Assembly: GCA_046327815.1 (NCBI GenBank)
Contig: JAXLXR010000002.1
Span: 382,422-446,421 of the forward strand
Length of the DNA stretch: 64,000 nucleotides
Origin: Candidatus Eiseniibacteriota bacterium
GTDB taxonomy: Bacteria; Eisenbacteria; RBG-16-71-46
Direction: 5' to 3'
The position numbers and the translations under genes are program-made. The notes beneath the pieces were generated by a model. It searched no databases. It had not been told where the DNA came from and saw only the letters and a program-made list of their open reading frames with translations. Positions 11,901 through 63,194 of this stretch are shown in pieces. Each line of letters begins with the position of its first letter. The first letter of the stretch is position 1.

Positions 11901-12171
11901 GCAGGCGGTGGCCGCGCACGCGGGAACGATCGACCTGATCGTGTCCGACGTGGTGATGCCGCGCCTGAACGGCCGCGACATGGCGGAGCGGCTGCTGCAG
12001 GCGCGGCCCGGCCTGCGCTTCCTGTTCATCTCCGGCTACCCCGACGACGCGCGCTCGCCGCAGGACTTCGCCGGCGAAGCGAGCGGTTTCCTCGCCAAGC
12101 CGTTCACGCCGCCGGAACTGCTGGCGGCCGTGCGCGGCGTGCACGAGTCCGCGCCGGCCACCCGGAACTGA
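8911..12171 (+). CDS. hybrid sensor histidine kinase (MASE1-like membrane domain, PAS, GAF, PAS, HisKA, HATPase_c, REC)
   Basis: Roughly 290-aa polytopic N-terminus with a MASE1-like [16 protein letters not shown]-box [12 protein letters not shown]-boxes DEGAGM and [12 protein letters not shown]-terminal receiver [14 protein letters not shown]...[10 protein letters not shown]. Confidence 0.85.
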
Positions 12172-19973: not shown

Positions 19974-20087
19974 CCAGCTTTTCCTGCGCCTTCGTGCAAT
20001 TTGCCCCTGTTAGAAGAGGGGGCCGCCGGGCGAAGATTCGACGACATCGTGCCTTCCCGTTCCGTCCCATCCTCGGAGCGCCGAAAC

Positions 20088-23000: not shown

Positions 23001-23186
23001 CTCGTGCTGCACGACGTGCGCGGCGCGCAGGTGCGGCGTTTCGAAGGCGACGCGCCGGCCGGCGCGCTCGACCTGCGCTGGGACGGCCGCGCCGGCGACG
23101 GCCACGCGGCCGCACCGGGCGTGTACTTCGCACGGCTCACGGCGAACGGCGCGACGCGCGACGCGAGGCTCGTGAAGCTGCGCTGA
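20088..23186 (+). CDS. secreted IPT/TIG-repeat protein with a C-terminal Por/T9SS-type sorting domain
   Basis: Signal peptide. At least 10 tandem roughly 85-aa repeats of the pattern P.G.GGT.LTI.GSNFG. The C-terminal ~75 aa are (LVLHDVRGAQVRRFEG...WDGRAGDGHAAAPGVYFARL...RLVKL). Confidence 0.75.
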   Translation: MPTSHRFSRLAGFAATFGLVMAACPALVHAGACPAPVVTSIVPATVPAAGGISLTINGSNFTANGSPKVTIGLRDVQVLSATNTQLVVVAPPQDDEATPAIHVRPGKNKPLRVTLTRFSYEPPVVVSAPPALVPRGGGTVLTVTGSNFRCSAPGAYVEDPATGGTCPAQVVAADDTSIVIRTEDCDDGNTNSDERVLHVTLAREGIVHRDLAARNILLSGSRASSVTPASVPSSGGTVLTIVGSGFAAGSTPPTAQVCVDGRCADARVSSYTDTQVFAVAPPAPVVPSNAQGRVVVTTNGVAGSSCALDYDSTPIIRGSRSSSLPASGGYPLTIRGDNFGPNMLMSCDDGSGSSVVVPTTGVGPGVIVGIVVGSPASTMNVSLLQAGHASAPISLPVLPPPTIGNAFAPANALGGDVLTISGTNFGPASALHDVQVSVRQNGVTTPAGPVRWLAPEALGVRLPAGAAGPADVIVSVNGVSATRTNAITYGGTGNGNAPIASTMLPTSVARGGGTVLTISGSNFGAAPLVRFGTQVLTPNPRGNTFAVVTTPALADMEESVPIEVLANGKESNPLYQGPKTETTNPLAGGQHSAWAGGTLLTITGSDFVAQSRVLVETGSGASTLVTPATVAPNQIRFVSPEVSGPTTVTARVVNGSASSNAQTLDYAGPVITGVSAAALSPAGGDVLTITGSGFGAAKGKTYFETGDIPTQDFWSDDQIVVTTPPRTPGCPSNRPFRVQSAAGQTSTAVTFSYTEPVVDGPDSPATTAIGGYPLTIRGDNFGPTAHLVWADGLPGPDITVTNQTRTSFAILLGSGSSGSRLMSLDSDSQRPPVAFALELLAPPELSGVSPPSGPLAGGNTITIHGANFGPPGTARAAWFAGEDDCPFTITDESPGTLVCTLPPGSSSGLRDLVVAVAGETDTLFAAYEYGGTTGVDDAVHAPRALALAALRSPFASEATLRLSLPQAGRWQLVLHDVRGAQVRRFEGDAPAGALDLRWDGRAGDGHAAAPGVYFARLTANGATRDARLVKLR

Positions 23187-23340
23187 CGCCGCGTCACGGC
23201 ACGGAACGGCGGACCGGAACGCTCCGGTCCGCCGTTTCGCGTTGCCGGCGGGCCCCCTGCTACACTTTTCGCCGTTCCCGCGCCCTCGCCGGCGCTCGTT
23301 CCGGAGCCGTACCGGCCGCCCACACGAAAGCCCCACTTCC

Positions 23341-26300: not shown

Positions 26301-26451
26301 GCTCGCCGACGGCGCGATGACCGCGGGCGAGCACTCCACGCGCTGGGATGGCCGCGACGCGGCGGGCCGCCTCGCGGGCGCCGGGCTCTACTTCGCGCGC
26401 CTCGAAGCGGCGGGCGAGCGCCGCACCACGCGCGTGGTGCGGCTGCCCTGA
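23341..26451 (+). CDS. GH13 alpha-amylase-family catalytic domain fused to NHL repeats and a C-terminal Por/T9SS-type sorting domain
   Basis: GH13 regions GYHGY, DVVCNH, GFRVDTVKH, FLMFGEVFD and FLDNHD. Downstream NHL-like repeats, then the C-terminus LAIYDVSGRHVRTLADG...WDGRDAAGRLAGAGLYFARL...VVRL. Likely TTG start at 23341 giving the signal peptide (M)RTLLRGGLAALVALSAFAAAAFA. The track ORF starts at 23242. Confidence 0.8.
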   Translation: MRTLLRGGLAALVALSAFAAAAFALSPSPDWRDQVIYQVITDRFANGNTANDNAEGSYNPSDGARTHGGDFVGLRGKLDYLQQLGVTTLWISPVVINTGGEYHGYAAKDLYTISPQMGTKAELQALVADCHARGMYVVIDVVCNHMGTLLTSTAPGYPAYNYPTGYPLSWRDTNKKYPGFFSDPAKFHNYGDVSNWSGTEQVVGAIFGLNDIRTEDASVQAELVAAYRQLIADTDCDGFRVDTVKHVDGGFWDVWCPGIRTWAATQGKSDFLMFGEVFDGDAAAGPFTGTMGSASYRFDSMLWYGMYWTTNGVWGGSTAPVEIQNTYGNLSYFDPTVRERLVTFLDNHDNSRFQGAGVANQDQSRARTAIAWLLTARAIPCLYYGTEQEFDGGSDPWCREDMWAGQWNFGPSLGDNFKQSHSLFRWTRDLIAVRKRHDALRRGALTHLYAEAAGAGLYAIERRSASDTVVVAINSANAPVAQVLATAWPAGTVLVDALEPAVRDTVAAGGVLVLSLGARGARVFESLAAHAVAAAPVHDRVVVTAQFPAHDQSLNDLRSPLVATFDRAVDGATLAASAWTAPAVAGAWQVDGRTAKFFPAAPWPSSTIVSWGFGAALRGADGTALRAPFEGRFRTTAYTSGITVASGFVADRIARQNLGAPVSVVDAPWAGEQAMLVGDVSKDRIFTLTTGGDFGHWLGDSRWTKSYGLVRGSDGRVTVTNGTALYEVDARRVVTPRAGTYSGASFGSLAQADAAWGGQLLMGDPAGNRIATVTAANTLVTFASGVNAPLGMAFGPGGAWGASLYVCDPNYTAANASLDGGARIARVTSGGAVSTFVADATALKGAGALAFDRTGRFGGDLFVADLLNERVLRVTSAGVVSVFATGFGNLSGTQCIGFGPDGALYVADAGSGDSFTRPTGLNAQGQVVRIAPTVLVTGVAPGVASGLRLAPASPNPSGGAVALRWTLAAGGRARLAIYDVSGRHVRTLADGAMTAGEHSTRWDGRDAAGRLAGAGLYFARLEAAGERRTTRVVRLP

Positions 26452-28148: not shown

Positions 28149-28778
28149 GAGCGACCTTTCCACTCGGACAGCGGCGGGGTGCCGAAAGTCACGTCGTTTT
28201 CACGAGGGCGACGGACACCGGCGACCGGAGGGGCTCCGGCACTCTATCCGGCGGCCATCCGGGAATGCATGTGACTTTCCGGAGTACTGCCGGTCTGAAG
28301 GTCGTGCCCGAACGGATCGGGCGGAACGCGGGCGCCGAGCCTCCTCGGCGTCGCACGCCGGACATCTCGCCTCAGGCGTTCCGTCCGCTCCTCGTGGGTA
28401 CGCAGGGAACGGTGCCCGCTCCGCGGTGTCACCCTCGGCCTGCGGCCGGCGTGCTTCCCCCGGCGCCGGCAGCCGGCGGCCCGTTCCCGTACGACGGTGA
28501 GGTGGCGTCCGAAGTGCCCACATCCAGGGAAGCAGGGGGGATACCGGGTACGGAGGGCGCCACCAGCCGATCCTCGCCGCGTCGAGCGGGCGGCGACGGT
28601 GCGCGCATGCAGCGGCGCCTGCGCGCGCCCGCGCGCGCACGCGCGCGGATCGGGGCGGGAAAAATCACCCGCCCCGGCGCGCTCAAGTGGGCTGCGGTGA
28701 TTCCGACACTCCCTCGTGCAGCCGCGGGTCCACGGACGGCCCGTCTTCCGACGACACCGTCCGACCGGAGGTGAGTGC

Positions 28779-29084
28779 ATGATCCGCCCCTTATCCGCGA
28801 CGCAGTCCGCGTTGCAGGGCCTGCAGGGTTCGCTGCGCCGGCTCGACCGCGCCGCCGAGACGATCGCGCGCGCCGGTCTCGACCTCGCGCCCGCCGCTCC
28901 GGTGCCGACCGACACCGCGGGCGGCACCACGGCCATCGTGCCGGCGACGAGCGACGACGACTTCCTCGACGCGATGGTGAACATGATGGTCGCGCAGCGC
29001 GCGTTCTCGGCTCAGCTGCGCATGCTCGAAACCGCGAACGACATGACGAAGGAAGCGATCGAACTGGGTGGTCGCGGGGCCTGA
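28779..29084 (+). CDS. small (101 aa) protein with a flagellar basal-body-rod C-terminal-like domain; isolated from any flagellar cluster
   Basis: Strong RBS GGAGGTGA 4 nt before the ATG. The C-terminal DFLDAMVNMMVAQRAFSAQLRMLETANDMTKEAIEL matches the Flg_bbr_C consensus (..MVN.I.AQRAYEAN.KVIQTADEML). The N-terminus is weakly rod-N-like. Confidence 0.5.
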   Translation: MIRPLSATQSALQGLQGSLRRLDRAAETIARAGLDLAPAAPVPTDTAGGTTAIVPATSDDDFLDAMVNMMVAQRAFSAQLRMLETANDMTKEAIELGGRGA

Positions 29085-35639: not shown

Positions 35640-36497
35640 TCAGTCGCCGAGTGCGGCGGGCTGGGCCGGGCCCAGCGGACCACGCTCCGTGCGGCCTTCG
35701 CGGGCCGACGGCGCACCGCTCTCGCGGCGCACGTGGTCGAGCACGTGCTGGTGCCGGTCGTCGCCGCCGAGCGCATCCTCGAGCCGGTCGAGCACGGCAC
35801 CGAGCGCGCGCAGCGCCTTCTCGGGGCCGACCGACGCGGTCGAGACCATGCGCTGCAGCCGGGCCACGAGCACCTGCAGGCCGCTGGTGTCGGGCGCGAG
35901 CGCGGAGCCGGCGGTACCGGCCGAACCGTCCGCGGTCGGGGACTCCGGGTCCTCGGCCGGGCGTGCCGGGCCGAGGAACACCGAACCCGGATCGCTCGCG
36001 TCCACGGGCACCGGGCGCGCTTCACCCGCGATCGCGGTGAGCGACGCGCTCGCCTCGAAGTCCGCGGCGAAGCCCGCGAGCGACGAGAACTCGCCGCGGC
36101 CGACGTCGGCCGCGCTCGCACCCTCGCTGCCGCGGAAGAACTGCCGCAGTTCGCGCCCGAACTGCTTGACGAGCTTCTCGATGTCGGCGCGTTCCTGCTC
36201 GTTCAGGTCGCCCTGCACGGTGATCTCGAAGCTCGCGCTCGATTCCAGCGACAGGTAGCTGGCCTGCGCGCCGCGCGAACGGATCGAGGCGAACGTGGCG
36301 TCCGCTTCGAGGTGGGCGGACAACGTCACGGTGTCGCCCTCGAGCGTCTTGATCGTGAGGTCGCCGCTCGCTTCGCGATGGGCGCTCGCGGCGACGAGGT
36401 TCGTGGCGGCATTCGTGCCTTTGCTGACCGAGCCGTCGGTGCGTTCGAGCGTGGGCTCGTACGGCATCAGGCTCGGCGATCCGATTCCGGAAACCAT
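35640..36497 (-). CDS. hypothetical protein (285 aa), last gene of the two-kinase operon
   Basis: RBS GGAGGA 6 nt before the ATG at 36495-36497. Coding-like GC3 bias. No domain recognised. Acidic, low-complexity C-terminal half. Confidence 0.5.
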   Translation of the reverse strand: MVSGIGSPSLMPYEPTLERTDGSVSKGTNAATNLVAASAHREASGDLTIKTLEGDTVTLSAHLEADATFASIRSRGAQASYLSLESSASFEITVQGDLNEQERADIEKLVKQFGRELRQFFRGSEGASAADVGRGEFSSLAGFAADFEASASLTAIAGEARPVPVDASDPGSVFLGPARPAEDPESPTADGSAGTAGSALAPDTSGLQVLVARLQRMVSTASVGPEKALRALGAVLDRLEDALGGDDRHQHVLDHVRRESGAPSAREGRTERGPLGPAQPAALGD

Positions 36498-36574
36498 GAG
36501 CGATCCTCCGTCCATGAAAGGGGAACCACGTCACGGAGTCTCGGGTCGTCCGGCGAATCCTTGAGAGCCGGACC

Positions 36575-39019
<2,445 letters not shown>

Positions 39020-39021
39020 GG

Positions 39022-39609
39022 TCAGGGCGCTCCGTCCACCACGTGTGCGAGCGCGAGAAGCCGCGAGCTGATCCGCAGGCCGGCCTGCTCGGCGCGCTGG
39101 AGGCTGATCTCGAACCGCACGCGCGGCGGTGCGCCCGTGAAGTTCACCATGCCGCCCCGCTGGGCGAAGCCCTCGAGGTCGGACAGCGTGACGACCGGCG
39201 CCCCGCGAAACGCGGTGAGGATCTCGTCCACGTGCGCCGATTCGGACCCCGCCACGTACACGATCTGGGCACCCTTGCAGTCCTGGGCCCGGCGCGCGAA
39301 GCGCACGAAGAGCGGCTTGCCGTTCACCGTCCGAGCGCTGAGCACCGACGCGAGCGTCACGGCCAGGTCGTCCTCGCCGAGGATCGCGACCACGATCTGG
39401 CCGCGGTTCTGGGCGATCACGCCCTCCGGCCACTGCACGAACTTGGCCATGTTGCAGACCATGTCGGCCTTGATCGCGCTCGCGTCCGGGGCCTGCGCGA
39501 ACGCCGGCGGCACGACGGCCGCCAGGCAGGCGAACACCGCCCACGCGGCGCGCGCGAGCGCGTGGCGTGCGGCGGCGAAGCGTGCGCGTCGCTCGGTCAT
39601 TCCGGGCAT
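39022..39609 (-). CDS. YfiR-like (DUF4154) periplasmic protein
   Basis: Signal peptide. The DUF4154-like core ([17 protein letters not shown]...[11 protein letters not shown]...[16 protein letters not shown]...[18 protein letters not shown]) resembles Pseudomonas YfiR. Located 2 bp upstream of HK1. Confidence 0.65.
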
Positions 39610-39740
39610 CCCTGCTCCTCGAGGCGGATCGTCATGGGTGAACGCCGGCAGGAACCGGCGATGGCCAGTCTCGGCCGTGCCCGTCACTCCTTGAGTGAAC
39701 GCGCAGGGCGACGGGCGGGAGCCCGCGCAAATGGCGGCGG

Positions 39741-42835
<3,095 letters not shown>

Positions 42836-42839
<4 letters not shown>

Positions 42840-43825
42840 GATCCGGAATCCGGAAGTGCCTGCGTGGTCACGAGCGCACCGCCGCGGACGGGCGGGGCGA
42901 GTGCCCCGATCTCCACCAGTACGTCCCACGTGCGCGCGAGCGCGCGCTCGAACGGACCGCCGGGCGCGAGATTCGGACGCTGTTCCGCGAGGCTGACCAG
43001 ACGCAGGCCGGCCATGCCGTCGGCGAACGCCTCGGGCGCCAGCTGCTCGCGGTCCGCCATCACGTCGCGCGCCTCGTCGGGATGCTCGCGCGCCCAGTCC
43101 TCCGCACGCAGCACGGCCCGGACGACGGCGCGGTAGCGCGTGGCGTCGTCGGCGAGTGCCGCGCTGTCGGCCACGAGCACGTCGGCGACGAGCCCCGGGG
43201 CCTGCGCCGAATCGAACAGGCGGTGCACACCGCGGTGTTCGAGCAGCTCGAGCGAGATGGGCGGGAAGCACTGCACGGCCTGCACGCCGCCACGCTCGAA
43301 CGCGTAGTCCTTCTCGTTCTGCGGCATCGGCGCCAGCTCGACGTCCGTCAGCCGCAGGCCGGCGCTCGCGAGCGCGGCCCAGATGTTGAGCACGTCCACC
43401 GATCCCGCTTCGAGCGCCACCCGCCGGCCGCGCAGGTCGGTGATCGCGTGCACGGTGCTGTCGCCGAGAAGCACGTCGCCGCCCGCGGACCAGTCGAGCA
43501 CGAAGAAGGCCTGGGGACGGCGCCGCGCCTGCGCGTGACTGAACACCAGTTCGACGTTCGACGCCGCGAACGCGTCCACGGAGCCGTTCTCGAACGCCGC
43601 GCGCGAGTCGCCCGGGGACTCGAGTTCGACCAGCCGCACTTCGACGCCCTCTTCCCGGAAGAAGCCCCGCTGCTGCGCGAGGTAGAGGAACTCGTATCCC
43701 GGCCACGGGCTCATCGCCACGCGCAGCGGAGTGGGCGGCGCGGGAGCGCAGCCGCCGAGGCACAGAGCCACGGTGGCGCAGCCGAGGAGAATCGAGGATC
43801 GGGGTCGCGAGATGGTCGAAGTCAT
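42836..43825 (-). CDS. periplasmic substrate-binding-like lipoprotein (NMT1/SsuA/TauA-type fold, tentative)
   Basis: Lipobox [14 protein letters not shown]. Type-2 SBP-like sequence ([24 protein letters not shown]). 4-bp overlap with the HK2 start suggests a sensor-accessory role rather than transport (no permease or ATPase nearby). Confidence 0.6.
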
Positions 43826-43988
43826 GGAATGGCGGGGCGGGGCCGCGTGGTTGCCGCTTCGCGGCGCAGTCTCGGCGGCCTGCACCATTCCTGAACGACC
43901 GGTCTGCACGCGAACGGCCGATGACGCCGGCGCCGGCGCTCCCGAAGGAGTGCCGGCGCCGGTGCGATGCGCGCAGATGGCGGCGAAA

Positions 43989-44593: not shown

Positions 44594-45619
44594 TCAGCGC
44601 ATGCCGGCGAGATGGATGACGTACCAGCAGAGTGCGGACACGATGGCCGCGGCGGGCATGGTGAGGACCCAGGCCCAGACGATGCGGCCGGCGACGCCCC
44701 ACTTCACGGCCGAGAGCCGCCGGGTCGCGCTGACGCCCGAGCCGACGATCGCGCCGGTGATGGTGTGGGTCGTGGAGACCGGGATGCCCAGCGCGCTGGC
44801 GCCGAACAGCGCGCAAGCGCCCGCGGTCTCGGCGCAGAACCCGCCGACCGGCTGGAGCTTGGTGATGTTCATGCCCATGGTCTTCACGATGCGCCAGCCG
44901 CCCGACAGGGTGCCCAGTCCGATGGCGCCGTAGCTCGCGAGGATGACCCAGAAGGGCACGTGGAACTCGCCGGTGATGGTGCCGGTCGAGTAGAGCAGCG
45001 CGGTGATGATGCCCGCCGTCTTCTGCGCGTCGTTGCTGCCGTGCCCGAGGCTGAACGCGGCCGCCGACACGAGCTGCAGGCGCCGGAACAGCGTGTCCAC
45101 GCCGCGCGGCGTGGAGCGCCGGAACAGCCACATCACGATCAGCATGAACAGGAAGCCGAGCGCGAGGCCGACCACGGGCGACACCACGATGAACGTGGCG
45201 ACCTTGGTGAGCCCCGACAGCATCACGGCCTGCGGGCCCACGGCCACGACGGCGGCGCCGATGAAGCCGCCCATCAGCGCGTGGGAGCTCGACGTGGGAA
45301 GGCCCCACCACCACGTGAGCATGTTCCAGATGAGCGCGCCCGCGAGCGCCGCGAGCACGATCGCGGGCGTGACGACCGCCGGATCCACCGTGCCCTTCGC
45401 GATGGTCTTGGCCACGTGCACGCCGAACACCGCGAACGCGATGAAGTTGAAGAACGCGGCCCACGCGACGGCCTGCCGCGGCGACAGCACGCGTGTGCTC
45501 ACGACGGTCGCGATCGAGTTCGCGGCGTCGTGGAAGCCGTTGCTGTAGTCGAACAGCAGCGCCACCAGCACGATCGCCCACAGCATGGGCGACAGGTGCG
45601 GAATCGCCAGGAGCTCCAT
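44594..45619 (-). CDS. inorganic phosphate transporter, PiT family
   Basis: Duplicated PiT signature GFHDAANSIAT ... GHGSNDAQKTAG. Roughly 10 TM helices. Confidence 0.85.
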   Translation of the reverse strand: MELLAIPHLSPMLWAIVLVALLFDYSNGFHDAANSIATVVSTRVLSPRQAVAWAAFFNFIAFAVFGVHVAKTIAKGTVDPAVVTPAIVLAALAGALIWNMLTWWWGLPTSSSHALMGGFIGAAVVAVGPQAVMLSGLTKVATFIVVSPVVGLALGFLFMLIVMWLFRRSTPRGVDTLFRRLQLVSAAAFSLGHGSNDAQKTAGIITALLYSTGTITGEFHVPFWVILASYGAIGLGTLSGGWRIVKTMGMNITKLQPVGGFCAETAGACALFGASALGIPVSTTHTITGAIVGSGVSATRRLSAVKWGVAGRIVWAWVLTMPAAAIVSALCWYVIHLAGMR

Positions 45620-46233
45620 CAGCGGCTCTTGAGGACGATGGACTCGATGGCGTTCGCGACGTCCTCGCACTGGTCGGCCGCGCTCTCGAGGCGACCGTAC
45701 ATTTCCTTCCAGCGCAGCACGTCGAGGATCTCGTGGCGGCCGCTGAACAGGTCGGCCACGACCTGCCGCGAGATGCCGTCGGCTTCGTTCTCGAGCCGGT
45801 TGATCTCGATCGTGAAGCTCATGAGGTTCTGCATGTTCTGCAGGTTGCTCACGGCCTGCTCGATCTGCCGCCCGCAGTCGCGAAGGATCGCGGTCATCTT
45901 CACCGCCTCGGGCGTGGCCTTCACGATGTTGAACAGCACGATGCGGCTGGCGATCGCCTCGGCCGCGTCGATCACGTCGTCGAGGCCGCTCGCCAGTGCG
46001 TGGATGTCCTCGCGCTCGAGCGGCGTGATGAACGTGCGGTTCAGGCGCTCGAAGATCTCGTGCGTGACGATGTCCGCGCGGTGCTCCGTGTCCTTGATCG
46101 CCTTCGTGCGTTCCTCGAGGCGGTCGAACTGCTCCATCATCTCGTGCAGCTGGTCGCAGGCTTCGCGGACGAGCACGGCCTGGCGGCGGAACAGAAGGAA
46201 GAAGTCCTCTTCCTTCGGGAAGAGCGAAAACAT
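45619..46233 (-). CDS. PhoU-like / DUF47 (Pit accessory) protein
   Basis: TIGR00153/DUF47-type sequence immediately upstream of the PiT gene, overlapping it by 1 nt. Confidence 0.75.
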   Translation of the reverse strand: MFSLFPKEEDFFLLFRRQAVLVREACDQLHEMMEQFDRLEERTKAIKDTEHRADIVTHEIFERLNRTFITPLEREDIHALASGLDDVIDAAEAIASRIVLFNIVKATPEAVKMTAILRDCGRQIEQAVSNLQNMQNLMSFTIEINRLENEADGISRQVVADLFSGRHEILDVLRWKEMYGRLESAADQCEDVANAIESIVLKSR

Positions 46234-46525: not shown

Positions 46526-48661
46526 ATGGAACGAGGGGCTGCAGGCCGTCACTGGCTGACGGACCTCGCACAACGCGCAGGGCTGCAAGGGGCGGACACG
46601 GTTCAGGTCGCGCCGGGCACATCACTCGCGCAGGCCTGGCAGGACGTGGCGCGTCATTGCGCGTTGTCCCCGGACCAGCTCGCCCAGGAAGTCGCCGACC
46701 AGATGCGGCTGCCGCTCGCGCGGCTGGGACAGCGCGATCCGCACGTGCTCAAGCTGCTGCCGGAGAAGCTCGCGCGCCGTTTCCACGTGCTGCCGTTGCG
46801 CGAGAGCGACCGCCAGATCGTGGTCGCGTGCTGCGATCCGCTGAACGACGAGATCGAGCGCGGCATCGCGTTCGCGTCCGGGCGCATGCCGATCTTCGAG
46901 ATCGCGTCGCACGAGGCCATCGCGAACGCGCTGGATCGCGCCTACGCCGCGCCGGCCAGCGCGCCGGCGGCTCCGGCCGCGGCCACCGCCGCGGGGCCCG
47001 GATCCGAGGACACGATCCGGCTCATGCAGAACTCCACGTCCGACGCCGCGATCACCGACGGTGACGCCGCGCCGGTCGTGAAACTGACGAACATCATCCT
47101 GCGCAACGCCGCGCACGAGCGCGCGAGCGACATTCACTTCGAGCCGGCCGCGGGCACGAGCACGGTGCGCTTCCGTGTGGACGGCGTGATGCGCGTGCAC
47201 ATGCGCATGCCCACGCTCGCCCTGCAGCGCGTCGTCGCGCGCATCAAGGTCATGGGCTCGATGGACATCGCCGACCGCCTGCGTCCGCAGGACGGCCGCG
47301 CCTCGTTCGAGGTGGACGGCCAGACCGTGGACCTGCGCATCTCGACCGTGCCGACGCGCGAGGGCGAGAAGTGCGTGATCCGCCTGCTGCGTGGCGCCTC
47401 GAGCGACACGCTCACGAGCCTCCAGTTGTCCGAGCGCGACCTGCGGCTGGTGCGCGGTCTCGTGGGCAACCGCAACGGCGTCGTGGTCGTGACCGGCCCC
47501 ACGGGTTCGGGCAAGACCACCACGCTCTACGCGATCATCCGCGAGCTCAACAACGGCGAGACCAACATCAGCACGGTCGAGGACCCGATCGAGTACGAGC
47601 TGCCCGGCATCACGCAGATGCAGGTCGAGACCAAGCGCGACTTCACGTTCGCGACGGCGCTGCGCGCGATCCTGCGGCAGGACCCCGACGTCATCCTCGT
47701 GGGCGAGATCCGCGACGCCGAGACCGCGACGATCGCGGTGCAGGCGTCCATGACCGGCCACCTCGTGCTCACGACGCTGCACACGAACGACGCCTCGAGC
47801 GCCGTCGCGCGCCTCGTGGACATCGGGGTCGAGCGCCCGGCGATCTCCGCGACGCTGCGCGGCGTGATCGCGCAGCGGCTCGTGCGCCGCGTGTGCCCGC
47901 ACTGTTCCGAGAAGGTCGCCGAACTCAACGACGAGGAGCAGCGGCTCGCGACGGCCTACGGCGTCACACCGACCGTGCGTGCGCGCGGCTGCGTGCGCTG
48001 CGGCAACAGCGGCTACATGGGCCGGGTCGCGATCCTCGAGATCCTCACGCTCACGCCGCAGCTGCAGCAGCTCGTCGCGAGCGGAGTCCCGGCCGTCGAA
48101 CTCCACGCCGCCGCCGCGCAGGCCGGCATGCGCACGCTGCGCATGTCCGCGCTGGCACGCGTGGCCGAGGGCGTGACGACGCTGCAGGAAGTCGAGCGCG
48201 TGGTCGGCGAACTGCCGGCCGAACCCGGCCTCGCCGCGCATCCGAGTCCCGCACCCGTGGCCGCCGAGCCGGTCGCGAAGGGCCCGCGCGTGCTGGTCGT
48301 GGACGACGACTCGGTGATCCGCAAGGTCGCGAAGCGGCTGCTCGCCGAGGGCGGCTACGACGTGATCGAGGCGGCCTCGGGCGAGGACGCACTCGAGATC
48401 CTCGCCACCGATGCGTCACTCGCGCTGGTCGTGCTCGATCTCGGGCTGCCCGGCATCCAGGGCGAAGACGTGCTGCGGCAGATGCGCACGTCGCCGTCCA
48501 CCGCGTCGCTGCCCGTGATCGTGCTCACCGGTTCGATCGATCCGGACGTCGAGGTGCGGCTCATGGAAGAGGGCGCCGACGACTACATCCGCAAGCCGAT
48601 CGAGGCGAAGCGTTTCGTGACGCGCGTGAAGGCCGCGCTGCGGCGCGCCGCCGCCGCGTAG
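46526..48661 (+). CDS. GspE/PilB-family secretion ATPase (T2SSE_N domain plus ATPase) fused to a C-terminal response-regulator receiver domain
   Basis: N-terminal T2SS-E N-domain (LPLRESDRQIVVACCDPLNDE). Walker A GPTGSGKTTT. Asp box. Walker B VILVGEIRD. His box TLHTN. Tetracysteine CPHC...CVRC. Then REC (RVLVVDDDSVIRKV...LVVLDLGLPGIQG...IVLTGS...KP). Confidence 0.85.
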   Translation: MERGAAGRHWLTDLAQRAGLQGADTVQVAPGTSLAQAWQDVARHCALSPDQLAQEVADQMRLPLARLGQRDPHVLKLLPEKLARRFHVLPLRESDRQIVVACCDPLNDEIERGIAFASGRMPIFEIASHEAIANALDRAYAAPASAPAAPAAATAAGPGSEDTIRLMQNSTSDAAITDGDAAPVVKLTNIILRNAAHERASDIHFEPAAGTSTVRFRVDGVMRVHMRMPTLALQRVVARIKVMGSMDIADRLRPQDGRASFEVDGQTVDLRISTVPTREGEKCVIRLLRGASSDTLTSLQLSERDLRLVRGLVGNRNGVVVVTGPTGSGKTTTLYAIIRELNNGETNISTVEDPIEYELPGITQMQVETKRDFTFATALRAILRQDPDVILVGEIRDAETATIAVQASMTGHLVLTTLHTNDASSAVARLVDIGVERPAISATLRGVIAQRLVRRVCPHCSEKVAELNDEEQRLATAYGVTPTVRARGCVRCGNSGYMGRVAILEILTLTPQLQQLVASGVPAVELHAAAAQAGMRTLRMSALARVAEGVTTLQEVERVVGELPAEPGLAAHPSPAPVAAEPVAKGPRVLVVDDDSVIRKVAKRLLAEGGYDVIEAASGEDALEILATDASLALVVLDLGLPGIQGEDVLRQMRTSPSTASLPVIVLTGSIDPDVEVRLMEEGADDYIRKPIEAKRFVTRVKAALRRAAAA

Positions 48662-56005: not shown

Positions 56006-56191
56006 GGCCCGGCCCCGGCGGCTCCCGCGCCGGGCGGAAAAACCCGCAAGCCCCTGCCATTGGCGGCCGATAACGGCCGCGAGTACCGGTACGGATGGAA
56101 CCCGGGCGCCCATCACGAGGATGGGTGTCCGCTCCCCTGCATTCGCACCGGTGGGGTGCAGTCCCCCCGAAAGGACTCACAGGGAGCCGGA

Positions 56192-57154
<963 letters not shown>

Positions 57155-57180
57155 GCGACACGAGGAATCCAGGAGACCGC

Positions 57181-59526
57181 ATGGACGCGACGCACACTCA
57201 CGGAGCGAGCCTGCTCGAACTGCCGGGCGAGGCGCTGGCGCTGCTCGCCGAGGCCGTTCTCGCGATGCGCACGACCGGCGATCTCGGCGTGTCGTGGGGC
57301 ATCGCGTCGGCGAACGTGCGCCGCGCGCTCAGTGCGGTGGACGCGAAGCTGCTGCGGCTCGACCGCCGCAGCGGTGCGCTGTTCCTGTACGAGGAGTCGG
57401 GCGTCGAGACGCCCTACCTCGCCGAGCACGGCGGTCCGGTCGAGTGGGTCATGCGCCACGACCGCGCCATGTTCGACGACGGCGCCGCGGGCCCGCACGC
57501 CGCGCGCGAGACGCTGCTGTGGCAGCGGCCGCCGGCCGCGCTCGCGACCGTGCCGCTCGTGGCCGGCAACACGCACTACGGCTTCCTGCTCGTGGCGTTC
57601 GACGCCCCGCGCACCCTGTCGGCGGCGGAGCGCCTGCTCGTGCAGTCGCTCGCGGACGCGCTCGCACTGGCGCTCGAACGGCTCGACCTGCTGCACCTGC
57701 TCGACCAGGAGCGCGCGCGCACCGGCGCGGCCGAACGCCGGCTCACGTCGTCGCTCGACTCGGCGTCGGGCCTCATGTCCATCCTGGCCCACGAGCTGCG
57801 CAGCCCGCTGTCGAGCATCAAGGCGTACACCGAGACGGTGGCCGCCAACCTCGACAACGACCGCGCGCCGCGCCGCCGGTTCCTCGAGGTGATCGAGGAG
57901 GAGTGCGACCGGCTGTCGGGCCTGGTGTCCGACGTGCAGGACCTGTCGCGCATCGAAGGCGGCGAGACCACGCTCCGGCTGACGGCGTGCTCGCTGGCCG
58001 AACTCGGCCGCACCGTGTGCGTGGAGCACGCCGACGCCGCCGGCAAGCGCGGCGTGACGATCGCGCTCGAATGCGAAGGCGACTCGCGCATCGAGGTGGA
58101 CACGGCGCTCGTGCGCCGCGTGCTCGGCAACCTGATCCAGAACGCGGTGCAGTTCTCGCCCGAAGGCGGCACGGTGCGCGTGCGCTTCGCGCTGCGCGGC
58201 GAGGAATGGACCTGCGCGATCACCGACGACGGCCCGCCGCTGCCGGCCGAGGACCTCGCGCTGGTGTTCGAAGGCTTCTACCGTGCGCGCCGCCAGCTTC
58301 CCGGCGGCCAGCCGTCGCACGAAGGCACGCGGCTCGGGTTGGCGATCGCGCGCAGCATCGTGCAGCTGCACGGCGGCCGCATGTGGGCCGAGCAGCCGCA
58401 CGCCGCCGAAGGCTCGCAGCAGGGCGCACGCTTCTGCGTGGCGCTGCCCGCGCGCCAGATCGCGTCGCCGCGCGCGCGCCGGATCGCGCGCCAGACCGCC
58501 GGCCGCGCCGACCTCGCCGAGCTGTTCGACGCGATCGTCGAGATGGTCGCGGCCACGCTCGACGCGAGCATCGTGTCGCTCGTGCTCGTGGACCCCGACC
58601 GTGGCGACCTGTTCCTCGCCGCCTCCGTCGGGCTCGACTCCGCGGGCGTCGAAGGCCGCCGCACCACGCTGCGCTCCGGCGTCGCCGGCGCGGTCGCCGC
58701 ATGGGGCCGCCCGGTGCTGGTCGAGAACATCGAGACGGACCGCCGCTTCCGCCGCCTCAACCACCCCCAGTACCACACGAAGTCGCTGCTCTGCGTGCCG
58801 CTGCGCGTGGAAGGCGAAGTGATCGGCGTGGTGAACGCGAACAACAAGATCAACGGCGAGGCGTTCGAGGAGGACGACCTGTCGCTGCTGGTCATGCTGT
58901 CGGAGCGCGTGAGCAGCGCGATCGAGCGCGCGTGCGCGTACCCGGACAGCCGCCGCGTGGTCGAGGACGCGCTCGAGGCCGTGCGCTGCATGACGCGCTT
59001 GAAGCGTGACTTCTCGCTGGGCGGACGCCGCCAGATGAAGCGGGCCCGTGCGGTGGCGCGCGAACTGGGCATGTCGCCCGCGGACGTGGACGTGATCGGG
59101 TACGTGGCCAGCATCCACGACGTCGGCATGGTGCGGCTGGAGGCCGAGACCGCCCACCCGGGCCGCCTCGACGAGCGCCAGCGCAACGCCGTGACCGCCC
59201 ACCCGGAAGTGAGCATCGAGATCCTGCGCCCGCTCGAGTACCTCGGGGTGGTGCGGGACTACATCCTGGGACACCACGAGCGCTGGGACGGCACGGGTTA
59301 CCCCCGCGGCCTGACCGGCGACTCGATCCCGTTGGGGAGCCGAATCCTGGCCGTGGTGGACGCGTGGGAGAGCATGACCACGCCCCGCCCGTTCCGGGCG
59401 CCGCAGGACGTCCAGCAGGCGGCCGCGGAACTGCGCCGGGAGGCCGGCCGGCAGTTCGACGCCGAGGTGGTGGAGGCGTTCCTGCGGGTGCTGGAGAAGG
59501 AAGGCGACCTGCGGGAAGCCGCCTGA
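57181..59526 (+). CDS. multidomain sensor: GAF, HisKA, HATPase_c, GAF, HD-GYP phosphodiesterase
   Basis: H-box LAHELRSPLSSIKAY. ATPase boxes (NLIQNAVQF, DDGPPLP, GTRLGLAIARSIV). Second GAF. HD-GYP motifs (SIHDVGM, HHERWDGTGYPRGL, VVDAWESMTTPRPF). RBS AGGAGA 4 nt before the ATG at 57181. Alternative GTG start at 57151. Confidence 0.8.
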   Translation: MDATHTHGASLLELPGEALALLAEAVLAMRTTGDLGVSWGIASANVRRALSAVDAKLLRLDRRSGALFLYEESGVETPYLAEHGGPVEWVMRHDRAMFDDGAAGPHAARETLLWQRPPAALATVPLVAGNTHYGFLLVAFDAPRTLSAAERLLVQSLADALALALERLDLLHLLDQERARTGAAERRLTSSLDSASGLMSILAHELRSPLSSIKAYTETVAANLDNDRAPRRRFLEVIEEECDRLSGLVSDVQDLSRIEGGETTLRLTACSLAELGRTVCVEHADAAGKRGVTIALECEGDSRIEVDTALVRRVLGNLIQNAVQFSPEGGTVRVRFALRGEEWTCAITDDGPPLPAEDLALVFEGFYRARRQLPGGQPSHEGTRLGLAIARSIVQLHGGRMWAEQPHAAEGSQQGARFCVALPARQIASPRARRIARQTAGRADLAELFDAIVEMVAATLDASIVSLVLVDPDRGDLFLAASVGLDSAGVEGRRTTLRSGVAGAVAAWGRPVLVENIETDRRFRRLNHPQYHTKSLLCVPLRVEGEVIGVVNANNKINGEAFEEDDLSLLVMLSERVSSAIERACAYPDSRRVVEDALEAVRCMTRLKRDFSLGGRRQMKRARAVARELGMSPADVDVIGYVASIHDVGMVRLEAETAHPGRLDERQRNAVTAHPEVSIEILRPLEYLGVVRDYILGHHERWDGTGYPRGLTGDSIPLGSRILAVVDAWESMTTPRPFRAPQDVQQAAAELRREAGRQFDAEVVEAFLRVLEKEGDLREAA

Positions 59527-59535
59527 CCCAGGCAA

Positions 59536-59606
59536 ATACCGGGCAGGGGGCACTCAAGCTGGCGAAGTGCACGGCCGATACCGGGCACGTATGGGAACAC
59601 CGGGCA
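59536..59606 (+). promoter_or_regulatory. three direct copies of A(T/C)ACCGGGCA in the intergenic region upstream of the CheY-like gene (candidate regulator-binding sites)
   Basis: Copies at 59536-59545, 59578-59587 and 59597-59606, with spacings of 42 and 19 bp. They lie 60-130 bp upstream of the ATG at 59668. Confidence 0.3.
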
Positions 59607-59667
59607 TGGTCCCGGTCGCGTCTTTCGAACGCCGGTCACGGAGTGGACCGGTTCAGGAGGTGAGGGC

Positions 59668-60066
59668 ATGGCGAAGGGCAAGATCCTGGTGGTGGACGAC
59701 GAGATCTACATCGTCCACATCCTGGACTTCAGCCTGGGCATGGAAGGCTACGAAGTCCTGACCGCGCTGGACGGCGAGCAGGCGTTCGAAAAGGCACGCG
59801 CCGAGAAGCCCGACCTCATCGTGCTCGACATCATGATGCCCAAGCTCGACGGCTATGAGACGTGCAAGCTGCTCAAGGCCGACGAGACCACGAAGCACAT
59901 CCCGGTGATCCTGCTGTCGGCCAAGGGCCGCAACGTGGACCAGAAGGTGGGCTTCGAAGTGGGCGCGGACGACTACATCACCAAGCCCTTCAGCCCGCGC
60001 AAGCTGGTCGAGCGCATCAACGCGATCCTGGGGCAGGGCTCGACGCAGCAGCGCATGCAGGCGTAG
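59668..60066 (+). CDS. single-domain (CheY-like) response regulator
   Basis: RBS CAGGAGGTGAGGGC followed by ATG. Receiver motifs (ILVVDDE, LIVLDIMMPKLDG, SAKG, KPF). Confidence 0.85.
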   Translation: MAKGKILVVDDEIYIVHILDFSLGMEGYEVLTALDGEQAFEKARAEKPDLIVLDIMMPKLDGYETCKLLKADETTKHIPVILLSAKGRNVDQKVGFEVGADDYITKPFSPRKLVERINAILGQGSTQQRMQA

Positions 60067-62235: not shown

Positions 62236-62303
62236 CGGAAGCGCGGTGCGCGAGGTGGTCTTGAAGCCACCTCGTTGCGAGCGGTTCGGACCTCAGATTC
62301 CTG

Positions 62304-63194
62304 TTGACGGCCTCGGCGGCCCACCTTCGCTCGGCTCACGGTCCGCCTCGCAGGAGCGCTGGATCGCTGCGAGGTTCGCGCGTGAGCGCAGCGGCCGCGC
62401 CCGACGCCGCAGCCGAAGTCGCACTTCCAGACATGCTCGGGCCTGACACGCCCATGACCGTGCCTGCCCCGGGGCAGGTGAAAACGCACGTCCGCGGCCG
62501 CGTCTTCGAGACCGAGTCCGGTGCGCGCGGCATTCGCGTCGAACTCACCGAGGAAGAGTTCGCCGATTTCGTGAAGGCCCGCGACATGCTCGCGCATGTC
62601 GTGCGCAATGGCGACGCCGCGGAAGTGATTGCCCGAGCACTCAGCCACTACGCCGCGCATCTCGAGAAGAGGCAGTACGGCACGAGGCCCGGATCGCCCG
62701 AGCTCAAGCGCGTGCCCAAGGGTCGTCACATCCCGAAGGCCCTGCGCCGCTTCATCGCCGATCGCGACGGTCGCTGCTGCTCGTTCGTCAGCCCCGACGG
62801 CCATCGCTGCTGCGAGAAACGAGCGCTGCAGGTGGACCACATCGTTCCGCTGTCACAGGGTGGCGAGACGAAGGCCGAGAACCTGCGACTGCTCTGTGCC
62901 CACCACAACCGCCACGAAGCGGCGAAGCGCATCGGCGAAGAGAAGATCGCCGCAGCCCGCGAGCAGCACGATCGCGCTGTCGCCGAGCAGAAGAAGGCCC
63001 GGGAAGAAGAAGCCGCACGCGCACTCGCCCGGCGCGAGAGCGACGCCGACCTGATGTCCGCACTGAAGTCGCTCGGCATGACACGCGAACAGGCGGAGAT
63101 CGCCATCGAACGCACGATGCACCTGGCACTGGGCAGGATCGAGGACCGCGTGCTTGCTGCCCTGAAAGAGCGAGGCAAGGGCATCGCCGCCTGA
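62304..63194 (+). CDS. HNH endonuclease-domain protein
   Basis: HNH core DHIVPLSQGGETKAENLRLLCAHHN with flanking Cys pairs (RCCSF, HRCC). The start is ambiguous (TTG 62304, or ATG 62433 or 62454). Confidence 0.6.
   Translation: MTASAAHLRSAHGPPRRSAGSLRGSRVSAAAAPDAAAEVALPDMLGPDTPMTVPAPGQVKTHVRGRVFETESGARGIRVELTEEEFADFVKARDMLAHVVRNGDAAEVIARALSHYAAHLEKRQYGTRPGSPELKRVPKGRHIPKALRRFIADRDGRCCSFVSPDGHRCCEKRALQVDHIVPLSQGGETKAENLRLLCAHHNRHEAAKRIGEEKIAAAREQHDRAVAEQKKAREEEAARALARRESDADLMSALKSLGMTREQAEIAIERTMHLALGRIEDRVLAALKERGKGIAA

What the first reader, a model, noticed from the sequence alone, without database searches (positions are those of the whole stretch)
46526..48661. Orphan GspE/PilB-type secretion ATPase with a C-terminal receiver domain
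This is a complete T2SS-E / type IV pilus assembly ATPase. It has the N-terminal T2SSE_N domain, Walker A GPTGSGKTTT, Asp and His boxes, and the tetracysteine motif. It continues into a roughly 120-aa CheY-like receiver, with the phospho-acceptor region in LVVLDLGLPGIQG. No GspF/PilC, pilin or secretin genes are nearby. Its neighbours are PiT/PhoU genes and an ATP-grasp enzyme gene. The fusion implies phosphorylation-controlled activity of a secretion or pilus motor. This architecture is at least uncommon.
Basis: partly seen in the sequence, partly recalled or inferred. Interest (0 to 1): 0.55.

Follow-up and report, generated by a model that had tools for sequence, protein, structure and literature searches.

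The report
Receiver-fused orphan PilB/GspE-type ATPase
This gene encodes a complete pilus/secretion-type motor ATPase with a built-in phosphorylation switch, and it belongs to a conserved, unstudied family that sits beside phosphorelay genes rather than pilus genes, which makes it a moderately interesting new variant of known parts.

Summary
Window 46526-48661 (+) is one uninterrupted 711-aa ORF, identical to NCBI MFN8586903.1 from a Candidatus Eisenbacteria MAG. It reads MshEN/T2SSE_N domain, then PilB/GspE ATPase core with all catalytic motifs and the tetracysteine, then a flexible linker, then a canonical receiver (D594/D595, D638, T668, K690).

It is not a one-off fusion. The architecture defines a monophyletic family in Eisenbacteria, Gemmatimonadota and some Terriglobia MAGs, with more distant fusions elsewhere. 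The catalytic and receiver residues are invariant across 63 members.

Two family-level properties emerged:
- No fused locus with at least 3 kb of flank carries a PilC/GspF platform gene (0/31), against 27/34 for REC-less relatives (p = 4e-12).
- An Hpt phosphotransfer domain lies next to the gene in 11/31 fused loci against 0/34. It is usually the tail of a HisKA-HATPase-REC-REC-Hpt hybrid kinase directly upstream.

The published MshEN c-di-GMP motif is absent in 0/120 members and is replaced by invariant H9-W10 and W38.

Best reading: a PilB-class hexameric motor whose activity is gated in cis by a multistep phosphorelay, acting on a machine encoded elsewhere. The phosphorylation and the target are inferred, not shown. 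I found no publication on this fusion. Verdict: new variant of a known kind, moderate interest.

The parts
46526..48661 (+). Complete gene for the MshEN-like N domain, T2SSE ATPase and receiver fusion protein (711 aa plus stop)
   Evidence: ORF and translation; Pfam; identical to NCBI MFN8586903.1
46234..46525 (.). Intergenic region of 292 bp between the divergent PhoU_div gene and the ATPase gene. It is the presumed promoter region. The gene is monocistronic here because the downstream gene is convergent.
   Evidence: Gene map. No sigma-70 consensus, terminator or Rfam element was found.
46526..46951 (+). N-terminal domain (aa 1-142), MshEN/T2SSE_N fold. It has family-invariant H9-W10 and W38 in place of the RLG...Q c-di-GMP motifs.
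   Evidence: Pfam MshEN at 63-144; AF2 pLDDT about 95 over residues 4-142; invariants; motif regex 0/120; PDB profile aligns only from about residue 45 onward
46952..47059 (+). Disordered Ala/Pro-rich linker 1 (aa 143-178)
   Evidence: AF2 pLDDT below 50; poorly conserved
47060..48220 (+). PilB/GspE-type ATPase core (N2 plus CTD, aa 179-565)
   Evidence: Pfam T2SSE E 2.5e-123; PDB best match M. xanthus PilB 3jc8 at E 1.5e-112; Foldseek TM 0.88 to PilF, PilB and GspE cores
47495..47524 (+). Walker A GPTGSGKTTT (aa 324-333, K330)
   Evidence: invariant in 63 family members
47576..47788 (+). Asp box (351-357), Walker B with catalytic Glu (386-397, E394) and His box (410-421)
   Evidence: invariant E352, D386-D388, E394, H412 and H419
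47894..48001 (+). Tetracysteine (zinc-type) motif C457-x2-C460 ... C489-x2-C492
   Evidence: all four Cys invariant
48221..48274 (+). Disordered Pro/Ala-rich linker 2 (aa 566-583) that tethers the receiver
   Evidence: AF2 pLDDT below 50. Linker length varies from about 15 to about 168 aa across the family.
48275..48658 (+). C-terminal receiver (REC) domain with (beta-alpha)5 fold. Signature residues: D594, D595, phospho-acceptor D638 (codon 48437-48439), T668, K690-P691.
   Evidence: Pfam Response_reg E 6.8e-25; AF2 secondary structure and pLDDT about 95; signature residues invariant or nearly so
36575..39631 (-). Candidate cognate hybrid histidine kinase (CHASE8-HAMP-HisKA-HATPase-REC-REC, no Hpt). 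The association with the ATPase is inferred, not shown.
   Evidence: Pfam. It is the best window match (45-48% identity, 395-447 bits) to the HK-REC-REC-Hpt kinases encoded directly beside the ATPase gene in Gemmatimonadota. The same kinase cluster lies at this position in Eisenbacteria loci L009-L012.

Best explanation
The gene encodes a catalytically competent PilB/GspE-class hexameric ATPase whose output is controlled in cis by a canonical receiver domain. The receiver is tethered to the C-terminus of the ATPase by a flexible linker. It is the terminal Asp acceptor of a multistep His-Asp-His-Asp phosphorelay: sensor hybrid kinase, then the kinase's internal REC domains, then Hpt, then D638. 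Phosphorylation is proposed to change how the receiver packs against the ATPase ring or against neighbouring receivers, and so to switch ATP turnover or partner engagement on or off. The sign of the effect is unknown. [quoted passage not shown] The motor most likely drives a type IV filament (pilus or T2SS-like) machine whose platform protein is encoded elsewhere in the genome.

Shown here: the domain anatomy, motif integrity, family conservation, adjacency to Hpt or kinase genes in relatives, and absence of PilC in cis.

Inferred: actual phosphotransfer, the effect on ATPase activity, and the identity of the machine.
For: Intact enzyme:
- All PilB/GspE motifs are present and invariant in 63 family members.
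- The predicted core superposes on PilF, PilB and GspE with TM 0.88 and rmsd 2.5-3.1 A.

Genuine receiver:
- D594/D595, D638, T668 and K690-P691 are invariant or nearly invariant.
- The fold is (beta-alpha)5 at pLDDT about 95.

Phosphorelay coupling in relatives:
- In Gemmatimonadota the gene directly upstream on the same strand is a sensor-HisKA-HATPase-REC-REC-Hpt kinase. In L001 it ends 4 bp before the ATPase gene and in L019 it overlaps it by 8 nt. The same arrangement occurs in L016, L022, L038 and L018.
- Alternatively, a stand-alone Hpt ORF abuts the gene in L017, L046, L027, L029 and L030, confirmed by Pfam.
- Hpt lies within 6 kb in 11/31 fused loci against 0/34 REC-less loci, p = 9.5e-5.

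Candidate kinase in the window: the CHASE8 hybrid kinase at 36575-39631 is the closest window homologue of those kinases.

Single origin: the fused proteins form one clade apart from PilC-linked ATPases.

Precedent in trans: the REC-only regulator DrdR binds PilB and PilT and raises their ATPase activity (PMC13507683). A gammaproteobacterial MAG has a stand-alone REC gene between pilB/gspE and pilC/gspF (L035).

c-di-GMP motif: absent in 0/120 family members but found by the same regex in canonical PilBs.
Against: - No PilC/GspF, pilin or secretin gene was found in the 64-kb window or within 10 kb of any fused locus. The link to a pilus or secretion machine therefore rests only on homology.
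- No Hpt domain was found in this window or in any Eisenbacteria locus. The candidate kinase here lacks Hpt and lies 7 kb away on the other strand.
- Kinase, GGDEF and HD-GYP genes are not statistically enriched near fused loci.
- The loci are phylogenetically related, so the counts overstate independence.
- A sister subgroup (L093, L095) has a degenerate receiver in which the acceptor Asp is replaced. The domain can therefore persist without phosphorylation.
- The rest of the genome could not be searched for a platform gene.
- The AF2 inter-domain geometry is not informative (pTM 0.58).
Confidence: 0.6

Rival explanations
1. The clade is no longer a pilus or secretion motor. It would be a response regulator whose output domain happens to be a PilB-like hexameric ATPase, acting on a different and unknown target. 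Its N domain (H9-W10/W38) would serve as a new partner- or ligand-binding module.
For: - PilC/GspF is in cis in 0/31 fused loci against 27/34 REC-less loci, p = 3.7e-12.
- Apart from signalling genes, no structural neighbour is conserved across lineages.
- The protein scores below the equivalog cutoffs of both PilB and GspE.
- The N domain has clade-specific invariant residues.
- An ATPase-less N-domain-plus-REC derivative exists beside Mla transporter genes, not pilus genes.
Against: - All features typical of extension ATPases, including the tetracysteine and the N1 domain that binds GspL/PilM in known systems, are retained under strong constraint.
- Extension ATPases encoded apart from their platform genes do occur, so absence in cis is not absence from the genome.
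Confidence: 0.22
2. The receiver does not gate catalysis. It would act as a phosphate sink for the adjacent hybrid kinase, or as a localisation or scaffolding module, for example for polar targeting, with ATPase activity constitutive.
For: - The flexible linker varies from about 15 to about 168 aa, which argues against a fixed intramolecular docking geometry.
- The pseudo-receiver variants in L093 and L095 show that the domain can be kept without an acceptor Asp.
- Single-domain receivers such as PilG/PilH mainly control localisation and polarity of T4P components (titles and abstracts listed).
Against: - The alpha4-beta5-alpha5 output face is highly conserved (G683, A684, D686, Y687, K690, P691, R696, R700, R706, R707).
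- Six receivers tethered to one ring is an arrangement well suited to controlling ring conformation.
- The trans-acting DrdR changes PilB ATPase activity directly.
Confidence: 0.12
3. The main regulatory input is c-di-GMP binding to the MshEN N domain, as in V. cholerae MshE, with the receiver secondary.
For: - Pfam MshEN hit.
- REC-GGDEF, kinase-GAF-HD-GYP and REC genes lie 7-11 kb downstream in the window and in syntenic Eisenbacteria loci. REC-HD-GYP lies beside the gene in L001, L016 and L023.
Against: - The RLGxx(L/V/I)(L/V/I)xxG...LxxxLxxQ motifs required for binding (PMC5013675) are absent in 0/120 family members, although the same regex finds them in canonical PilBs.
- The profile aligns to MshE (5HTL) only from about residue 47, after the binding motifs.
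- GGDEF and HD-GYP genes are not enriched near fused loci.
Confidence: 0.05
4. The fusion is an assembly, frameshift or annotation artefact that joins two separate genes.
For: None.
Against: - The ORF is continuous.
- The same architecture occurs in every full-length protein among the 120 best hits and in independent assemblies from NCBI, JGI, ENA and Logan.
- Domain hits lie in the same stop-to-stop ORF in the metagenome loci.
Confidence: 0.01

Closest known systems
PilB / GspE / MshE / PilF extension ATPases of type IV filament machines (Pfam T2SSE PF00437)
   Same: - N1 (T2SSE_N/MshEN) domain plus N2 and CTD core.
- Walker A and B, Asp and His boxes, tetracysteine.
- 36-47% identity and TM 0.88 to solved PilB, PilF and GspE cores.
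   Different: - Carries a C-terminal receiver.
- Scores below the PilB and GspE equivalog cutoffs.
- Never encoded beside PilC/GspF.
- Lacks the MshE c-di-GMP motif.
- Forms its own clade.
Trans-acting receiver proteins that control T4P motors: DrdR of Xanthomonas campestris (PMC13507683), PilG/PilH (Pil-Chp) and the cyanobacterial PATAN-REC regulators
   Same: A receiver domain modulates a PilB-type ATPase. DrdR binds PilB and PilT and increases their ATPase activity.
   Different: In those systems the receiver is a separate protein that acts in trans and is fed by chemosensory or orphan kinases. Here it is covalently fused, one per protomer, and in relatives it is paired with an Hpt-containing hybrid kinase.
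NtrC/DctD-type response regulators (REC fused to an oligomeric AAA+ ATPase). This comparison rests on established knowledge and was not tested here.
   Same: In concept, phosphorylation of a fused receiver controls assembly or activity of a ring ATPase.
   Different: The ATPase superfamily differs (AAA+ sigma-54 activators against the RecA-like secretion ATPases). The receiver is N-terminal there and C-terminal here. This protein has no DNA-binding domain.
MshEN-REC response regulators without an ATPase domain (for example Bd2402, cited in PMC5013675)
   Same: MshEN-type and REC domains occur in one protein. Wang et al. list REC among the MshEN partner domains. ATPase-less N-domain-plus-REC relatives of this family exist in Gemmatimonadota (L048-L054).
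   Different: Bd2402-type proteins bind c-di-GMP. This family lacks the binding motif and retains a full ATPase.
FimX-PilZ-PilB regulatory complex of Xanthomonas
   Same: A signalling input that includes a REC-containing protein is relayed to PilB.
   Different: That system works through c-di-GMP and adaptor proteins in trans, not through a fused phospho-acceptor.

Membership tests
T2SSE secretion-ATPase superfamily (PF00437) | Profile match above the gathering score, with Walker A, Walker B, Asp box and His box | tested here: met
   411.8 bits against cutoff 24.9. Motifs located and invariant in the family.
T2SSE secretion-ATPase superfamily (PF00437) | PilB/GspE-type fold of N2 plus CTD | tested here: met
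   AF2 model with pLDDT 89. Foldseek target-normalised TM 0.88 and rmsd 2.5-3.1 A to 5oiu, 5tsh and 5it5.
Type IV-A pilus assembly ATPase PilB (NCBIfam equivalog TIGR02538) | Score at or above the curated equivalog cutoff | tested here: not met
   484.4 bits against cutoff 675.65
Type II secretion ATPase GspE (NCBIfam equivalog TIGR02533) | Score at or above the curated equivalog cutoff | tested here: not met
   514.7 bits against cutoff 630.25
PilB/GspE extension ATPases (functional class) | Tetracysteine zinc-binding motif in the CTD | tested here: met
   C457, C460, C489 and C492, all invariant
PilB/GspE extension ATPases (functional class) | Genomic association with a platform protein (PilC/GspF, PF00482) | tested here: not met
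   No T2SSF match in the window or in any fused locus: 0/31 against 27/34 for REC-less relatives. The rest of the genome could not be searched.
PilB/GspE extension ATPases (functional class) | ATP hydrolysis, hexamer formation and requirement for filament assembly or secretion | not testable with these tools
   Needs biochemistry and genetics
MshEN c-di-GMP receptor domain (Wang et al. 2016, PMC5013675) | Pfam MshEN (PF05157) profile match | tested here: met
   58.2 bits against cutoff 23.1, residues 63-144, which is the C-terminal subdomain only
MshEN c-di-GMP receptor domain (Wang et al. 2016, PMC5013675) | Tandem 24-residue motifs RLGxx(L/V/I)(L/V/I)xxG(L/V/I)(L/V/I)xxxxLxxxLxxQ | tested here: not met
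   Strict and loose regex both give 0/120 family members. Positive controls L037 and L045 are hit. The family has H9-W10 and A37-W38 instead.
Two-component receiver domain (PF00072) | Profile match above the gathering score and (beta-alpha)5 fold | tested here: met
   87.8 bits against cutoff 30.2. AF2 shows five strand-helix units at pLDDT about 95.
Two-component receiver domain (PF00072) | Acidic pocket DD, phospho-acceptor Asp, conserved Thr/Ser and Lys | tested here: met
   D594/D595, D638, T668 and K690. D594, D638, T668 and K690 are invariant and D595 is conserved at 90% or more.
Two-component receiver domain (PF00072) | A cognate phosphodonor (kinase or Hpt) | tested here: inconclusive
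   An Hpt or a kinase ending in Hpt lies beside the gene in 11/31 fused loci. None was found in this window. The candidate kinase at 36575-39631 lacks Hpt.
Two-component receiver domain (PF00072) | Actual phosphorylation of D638 | not testable with these tools
   Needs phosphotransfer assays

The most novel reading that the evidence does not exclude
The receiver-fused clade may be a PilB-derived ring ATPase that has been uncoupled from type IV filament machinery. It would serve as the enzymatic output of a dedicated His-Asp-His-Asp phosphorelay and act on a target that is not a PilC-type platform. Its remodelled N domain (invariant H9-W10 and W38, about 28 residues apart, in place of the two c-di-GMP motifs) would sense a different ligand or partner. 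The ATPase-less N-domain-plus-REC proteins would be regulators of the same pathway.
Probability: 0.2. Interest if true: 0.75.

Novelty: new variant of a known kind. Interest (0 to 1): 0.47.

Why it matters
How extension ATPases of pili and type II secretion systems are switched on and off is only partly understood. Known inputs act in trans: c-di-GMP on MshEN, PilZ/FimX adaptors, and single-domain receivers such as PilG/PilH or DrdR.

A family in which the receiver is fused to every protomer, and in relatives is encoded with its own Hpt-containing kinase, gives a compact system. Phosphorylation control of a PilB-class ring could be tested directly with the two or three proteins involved.

The family also marks an unstudied signalling output in Gemmatimonadota, Eisenbacteria and Acidobacteriota, which are abundant soil and sediment phyla with few cultured members.

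The complete loss of linkage to platform genes raises the question of whether these motors still serve pili at all.

Tried and rejected
- c-di-GMP control through the N domain. The Pfam MshEN hit suggested it, but the binding motifs are absent in all 120 relatives. The PDB profile alignment starts after the motif region.
- A c-di-GMP neighbourhood. REC-GGDEF and HD-GYP genes occur near the gene in the window and in several relatives. Their frequency within 6 kb does not differ from REC-less controls. I dropped this as evidence.
- Histidine-kinase enrichment. It is not significant (13/31 against 10/34). Only Hpt is enriched.
- A functional link to PiT/PhoU_div or to the Ddl-like ATP-grasp and Peptidase_Mx genes. 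This synteny is confined to part of the Eisenbacteria and is absent from L004, L013, L014, L087 and all Gemmatimonadota loci.
- Hpt in the window. A family-specific Hpt HMM run without filters found nothing. Pfam found nothing in the ORF downstream of the kinase, 35640-36530.
- A Rosetta-stone argument from L035 (pilB, REC, pilC). The arrangement is real. That REC is generic, however, and is not specifically related to the family's REC. It does not appear among the 63 best matches to the family REC HMM shown. The support is therefore weak.
- Two paralogues in one MAG (L005 and L009). Both loci have the same synteny, so a mixed bin is more likely than paralogy.
- A riboswitch, promoter or terminator around the gene. 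None was found.
- L029/L030, which looked like a long operon. The neighbours are housekeeping genes, not pilus genes.
- The AFDB fold library was unavailable.
- The representative-library search was confounded by multi-REC proteins and gives only a rough family size.
- Literature searches for a T2SSE-REC fusion found no paper that describes it.
Full report
**1. The observation**

Window 46526-48661 (+) is a single uninterrupted ORF. The ATG is preceded by GAGGGG and the stop is TAG. It encodes 711 aa. GC3 is 0.92 in a 70% GC genome, which marks it as coding.

Pfam finds three domains:
- MshEN/T2SSE_N at residues 63-144, E 8.5e-16.
- T2SSE at 180-558, E 2.5e-123.
- Response_reg at 589-701, E 6.8e-25.

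- Walker A at 324-333, Asp box at 351-357, Walker B at 386-397, His box at 410-421.
- CPHC at 457-460 and CVRC at 489-492.
- Receiver D594/D595, D638, T668 and K690-P691.

The protein is identical to NCBI MFN8586903.1, 'type II/IV secretion system protein [Candidatus Eisenbacteria bacterium]', on a 508-kb contig.

**2. Surroundings in the window**

Upstream and divergent are, in order away from the gene:
- PhoU_div/DUF47 at 45619-46233.
- PiT at 44594 to about 45540.
- Cyclophilin.
- An NMT1-type binding protein.
- A PAS-PAS hybrid kinase starting at 39741.
- A CHASE8-HAMP-HisKA-HATPase-REC-REC hybrid kinase at 36575-39631.

Downstream and convergent, with only 12 bp between the stop codons, are a Ddl-like ATP-grasp gene and a Peptidase_Mx-like gene. 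Further on are a PQQ propeller, TsaD, REC-GGDEF, a kinase-GAF-HD-GYP protein, a single REC and PriA. The gene is therefore monocistronic here.

No partner genes were found in the 64 kb:
- An HMM for PilC/GspF, built from three Pfam-verified PilCs, finds nothing.
- A prepilin signal regex finds nothing.
- Pfam scans of the large ORFs show no secretin or PilM/N/O.
- No Rfam element, consensus promoter or terminator flanks the gene.

**3. It is a family, not an accident**

All full-length proteins among the 120 best database hits (50-100% identity) have the same three domains. Species-representative genomes place full-length members in several groups:
- Candidatus Eisenbacteria MAGs, at 62-85% identity.
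- Gemmatimonadota (Gemmatimonadales and Longimicrobiales), at 45-53%.
- Two complete 'Terriglobia' chromosomes, at 48-49%. There the protein continues into TPR repeats and reaches 1195 aa.
- An alphaproteobacterial MAG, at 38%, in an assembly that appears frameshifted.

Metagenome contigs add fused proteins at 37-43% identity.

In an alignment of 63 members, the catalytic residues, the four cysteines and the receiver signature residues are invariant or nearly so. A neighbour-joining tree of the ATPase cores puts the fused proteins of the genome set in one clade, separate from PilC-linked PilB/GspE proteins. One REC-less member (L039) is nested inside, which indicates a secondary loss.

A search of 1.84 billion representatives with the CTD-linker-REC segment gave 937 hits at E of 1e-30 or better. 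These are mixed with multi-REC proteins. About 35 of the best 150 show one contiguous match across both parts. The fusion is therefore diverse, yet small beside the T2SSE superfamily.

**4. Structure**

AlphaFold2 with the family alignment gives a mean pLDDT of 89. It shows three confident domains at 4-142, 179-565 and 584-711. They are joined by two disordered linkers at 143-178 and 566-583. The pTM of 0.58 means the relative placement of the domains is not predicted.

The core matches Thermus PilF, Geobacter PilB and Vibrio GspE with target-normalised TM 0.88. By sequence, the closest solved chain is M. xanthus PilB. No solved structure combines T2SSE with a receiver.

The linker before the receiver varies from about 15 to about 168 residues in the family. 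This fits a flexible tether.

**5. What distinguishes the clade**

(a) It is never encoded beside a platform gene. I counted loci with at least 3 kb on both sides. PilC/GspF is present in 0 of 31 fused loci and in 27 of 34 REC-less loci, Fisher p = 3.7e-12. Clustering all neighbouring ORFs found no structural gene conserved across lineages.

(b) It is associated with Hpt.
- In Gemmatimonadota the gene directly upstream on the same strand is a sensor-HisKA-HATPase-REC-REC-Hpt kinase. This holds for L001, L016, L019, L022, L038 and L018. In L001 it ends 4 bp before the ATPase gene and in L019 it overlaps it by 8 nt. In L020 the kinase lies downstream.
- In L017 and L046 a stand-alone Hpt ORF lies just upstream. 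In L027, L029 and L030 it lies just downstream. All five are confirmed by Pfam.
- Hpt lies within 6 kb in 11/31 fused loci against 0/34 controls, p = 9.5e-5.
- An Hpt at the end of a hybrid kinase needs a terminal receiver. The receiver fused to the ATPase is the obvious acceptor.

(c) The c-di-GMP motifs of MshE-type N domains (PMC5013675) are missing in all 120 relatives. The same regex finds them at positions 9 and 38 of a canonical PilB in L037. The family has invariant H9-W10 and W38 in their place. More distant fused groups keep an E-W-L ... L-W-E version.

Caveat: the fused loci share ancestry, so the counts are not independent events. Their neighbourhoods do differ widely, however.

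**6. This window specifically**

No Hpt was found here or in any Eisenbacteria locus. The CHASE8 hybrid kinase at 36575-39631 is the best window match to the Gemmatimonadota kinases that sit beside the ATPase gene. It shares 45-48% identity with them over HisKA-HATPase-REC-REC, against 25-30% for unrelated kinases in the window. The same kinase cluster occupies this position in L009-L012.

It lacks Hpt, however, and it is absent from other Eisenbacteria loci (L004, L013, L014). It is a candidate donor pathway and nothing more. An Hpt protein must be encoded elsewhere, or a kinase must phosphorylate D638 directly.

**7. Mechanism**

The best-supported reading is a PilB-class hexameric motor whose activity is gated in cis by phosphorylation of D638, at the end of a His-Asp-His-Asp relay. 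Six tethered receivers could dimerise, or dock on and release from the ring, to change its conformation. The conserved alpha4-beta5-alpha5 face and the basic alpha5 helix would be the interaction surface. The sign of the effect is unknown.

There are precedents for receiver control of these motors in trans. DrdR binds PilB and PilT and raises their ATPase activity (PMC13507683). PilG/PilH and the PATAN-REC regulators are further examples.

- Shown: the anatomy, the conservation and the gene-neighbourhood statistics.
- Inferred: phosphotransfer, the effect on catalysis, and the existence of a platform encoded elsewhere.

The main rival is that the clade has left pilus and secretion biology and acts on another target. 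My data do not exclude it, and I put it at about 0.2.

**8. Comparison and membership**

The protein is a member of the T2SSE superfamily and carries a bona fide receiver domain. It does not reach the equivalog cutoffs for PilB (484 against 676 bits) or GspE (515 against 630 bits). It lacks the c-di-GMP motif of functional MshEN domains. It should therefore not be filed as PilB, GspE or MshE. It plausibly works like a PilB-type motor combined with an NtrC-like logic of receiver-controlled ring ATPase.

**9. Novelty and score**

Automatic annotations already record the two domains; JGI, for example, names it 'PilB-like protein/CheY-like'. Wang et al. note that MshEN can co-occur with REC. I found no paper that describes or tests a T2SSE-REC fusion, its Hpt coupling or its separation from platform genes.

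I rate it a new variant of a known kind, with interest of about 0.47. It is a clean, testable system for phosphorylation control of a secretion-type ATPase in under-studied phyla. It is built from familiar modules, and its cellular role is unresolved.

Noticed in passing
L048-L054 (e.g. L051 9638-11002): Gemmatimonadota and Longimicrobiales MAGs encode a protein made of the family-specific MshEN-like N domain fused directly to a REC domain, with no ATPase. Its REC scores 144-148 bits with the family REC HMM, against 105 or less for generic RECs, so it looks like an ATPase-deleted derivative. It lies next to MlaE/MlaF/MlaD genes, not pilus genes. The stretch upstream of the N domain in L051 contains an Hpt-like 'QALRGSGGTFG' segment in which Gln replaces the expected His.
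   Followed up: partly
L093 2018-4015, L095 10001-11998: A more distant fused subgroup has a degenerate receiver. The acceptor Asp is replaced (VVALKLP), the DD pocket reads SD or GD, and the conserved Lys is replaced (LHEP/LVEP). This is a pseudo-receiver version of the same architecture.
   Followed up: no
L021 9917-13504, L024 9917-13252: In two complete 'Terriglobia' chromosomes the same fusion continues into C-terminal TPR repeats, giving MshEN-T2SSE-REC-TPR of about 1100-1200 aa. It is followed by a Ser/Thr kinase with TPR repeats.
   Followed up: partly
L035 9812-13236: A gammaproteobacterial MAG has a stand-alone single-domain response regulator gene (11612-11983) between a canonical pilB/gspE and pilC/gspF. 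This is a possible trans version of receiver control of the motor.
   Followed up: partly
L005 and L009 (same MAG, JBGANH01): One Eisenbacteria MAG carries two copies of the gene (82% and 70% identical to the query) in the same syntenic context. This is more likely a bin that mixes two related populations than true paralogy.
   Followed up: no
window 675-3857, 19974-23186, 23176-26451: Three large predicted secreted proteins (CARDB-containing, 7x IPT/TIG, alpha-amylase) all end in a FlgD_ig-like domain. This looks like a shared C-terminal sorting or anchoring tag in this lineage.
   Followed up: no
window 56006-60066: A REC-GGDEF gene, a HisKA-HATPase-GAF-HD-GYP protein and a single REC form a c-di-GMP turnover module that is syntenic in several Eisenbacteria loci (L003, L004, L013, L014). 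It is not statistically linked to the ATPase family overall.
   Followed up: partly
window 39741-43909 (-): An NMT1/THI5-like periplasmic binding protein ORF (42836-43909) overlaps, in another frame, the long ORF of a PAS-PAS hybrid kinase (39741-43763). The true kinase start is probably near 42800. This would make it a binding-protein-plus-kinase pair next to the CHASE8 kinase.
   Followed up: no
window 28701-29084: A small ORF (127 aa) has a flagellar rod FlgEFG C-terminal domain (Flg_bbr_C, E 2.5e-9), with no other flagellar genes seen nearby.
   Followed up: no
window 62265-63194: An HNH endonuclease-domain ORF lies directly after priA.
   Followed up: no
window 46550-46555 and 46637-46639: Codons for H9-W10 and W38 are invariant in the family and about 28 residues apart. 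This mirrors the 29-residue spacing of the two c-di-GMP motifs of MshE and may mark a remodelled ligand or partner site.
   Followed up: partly
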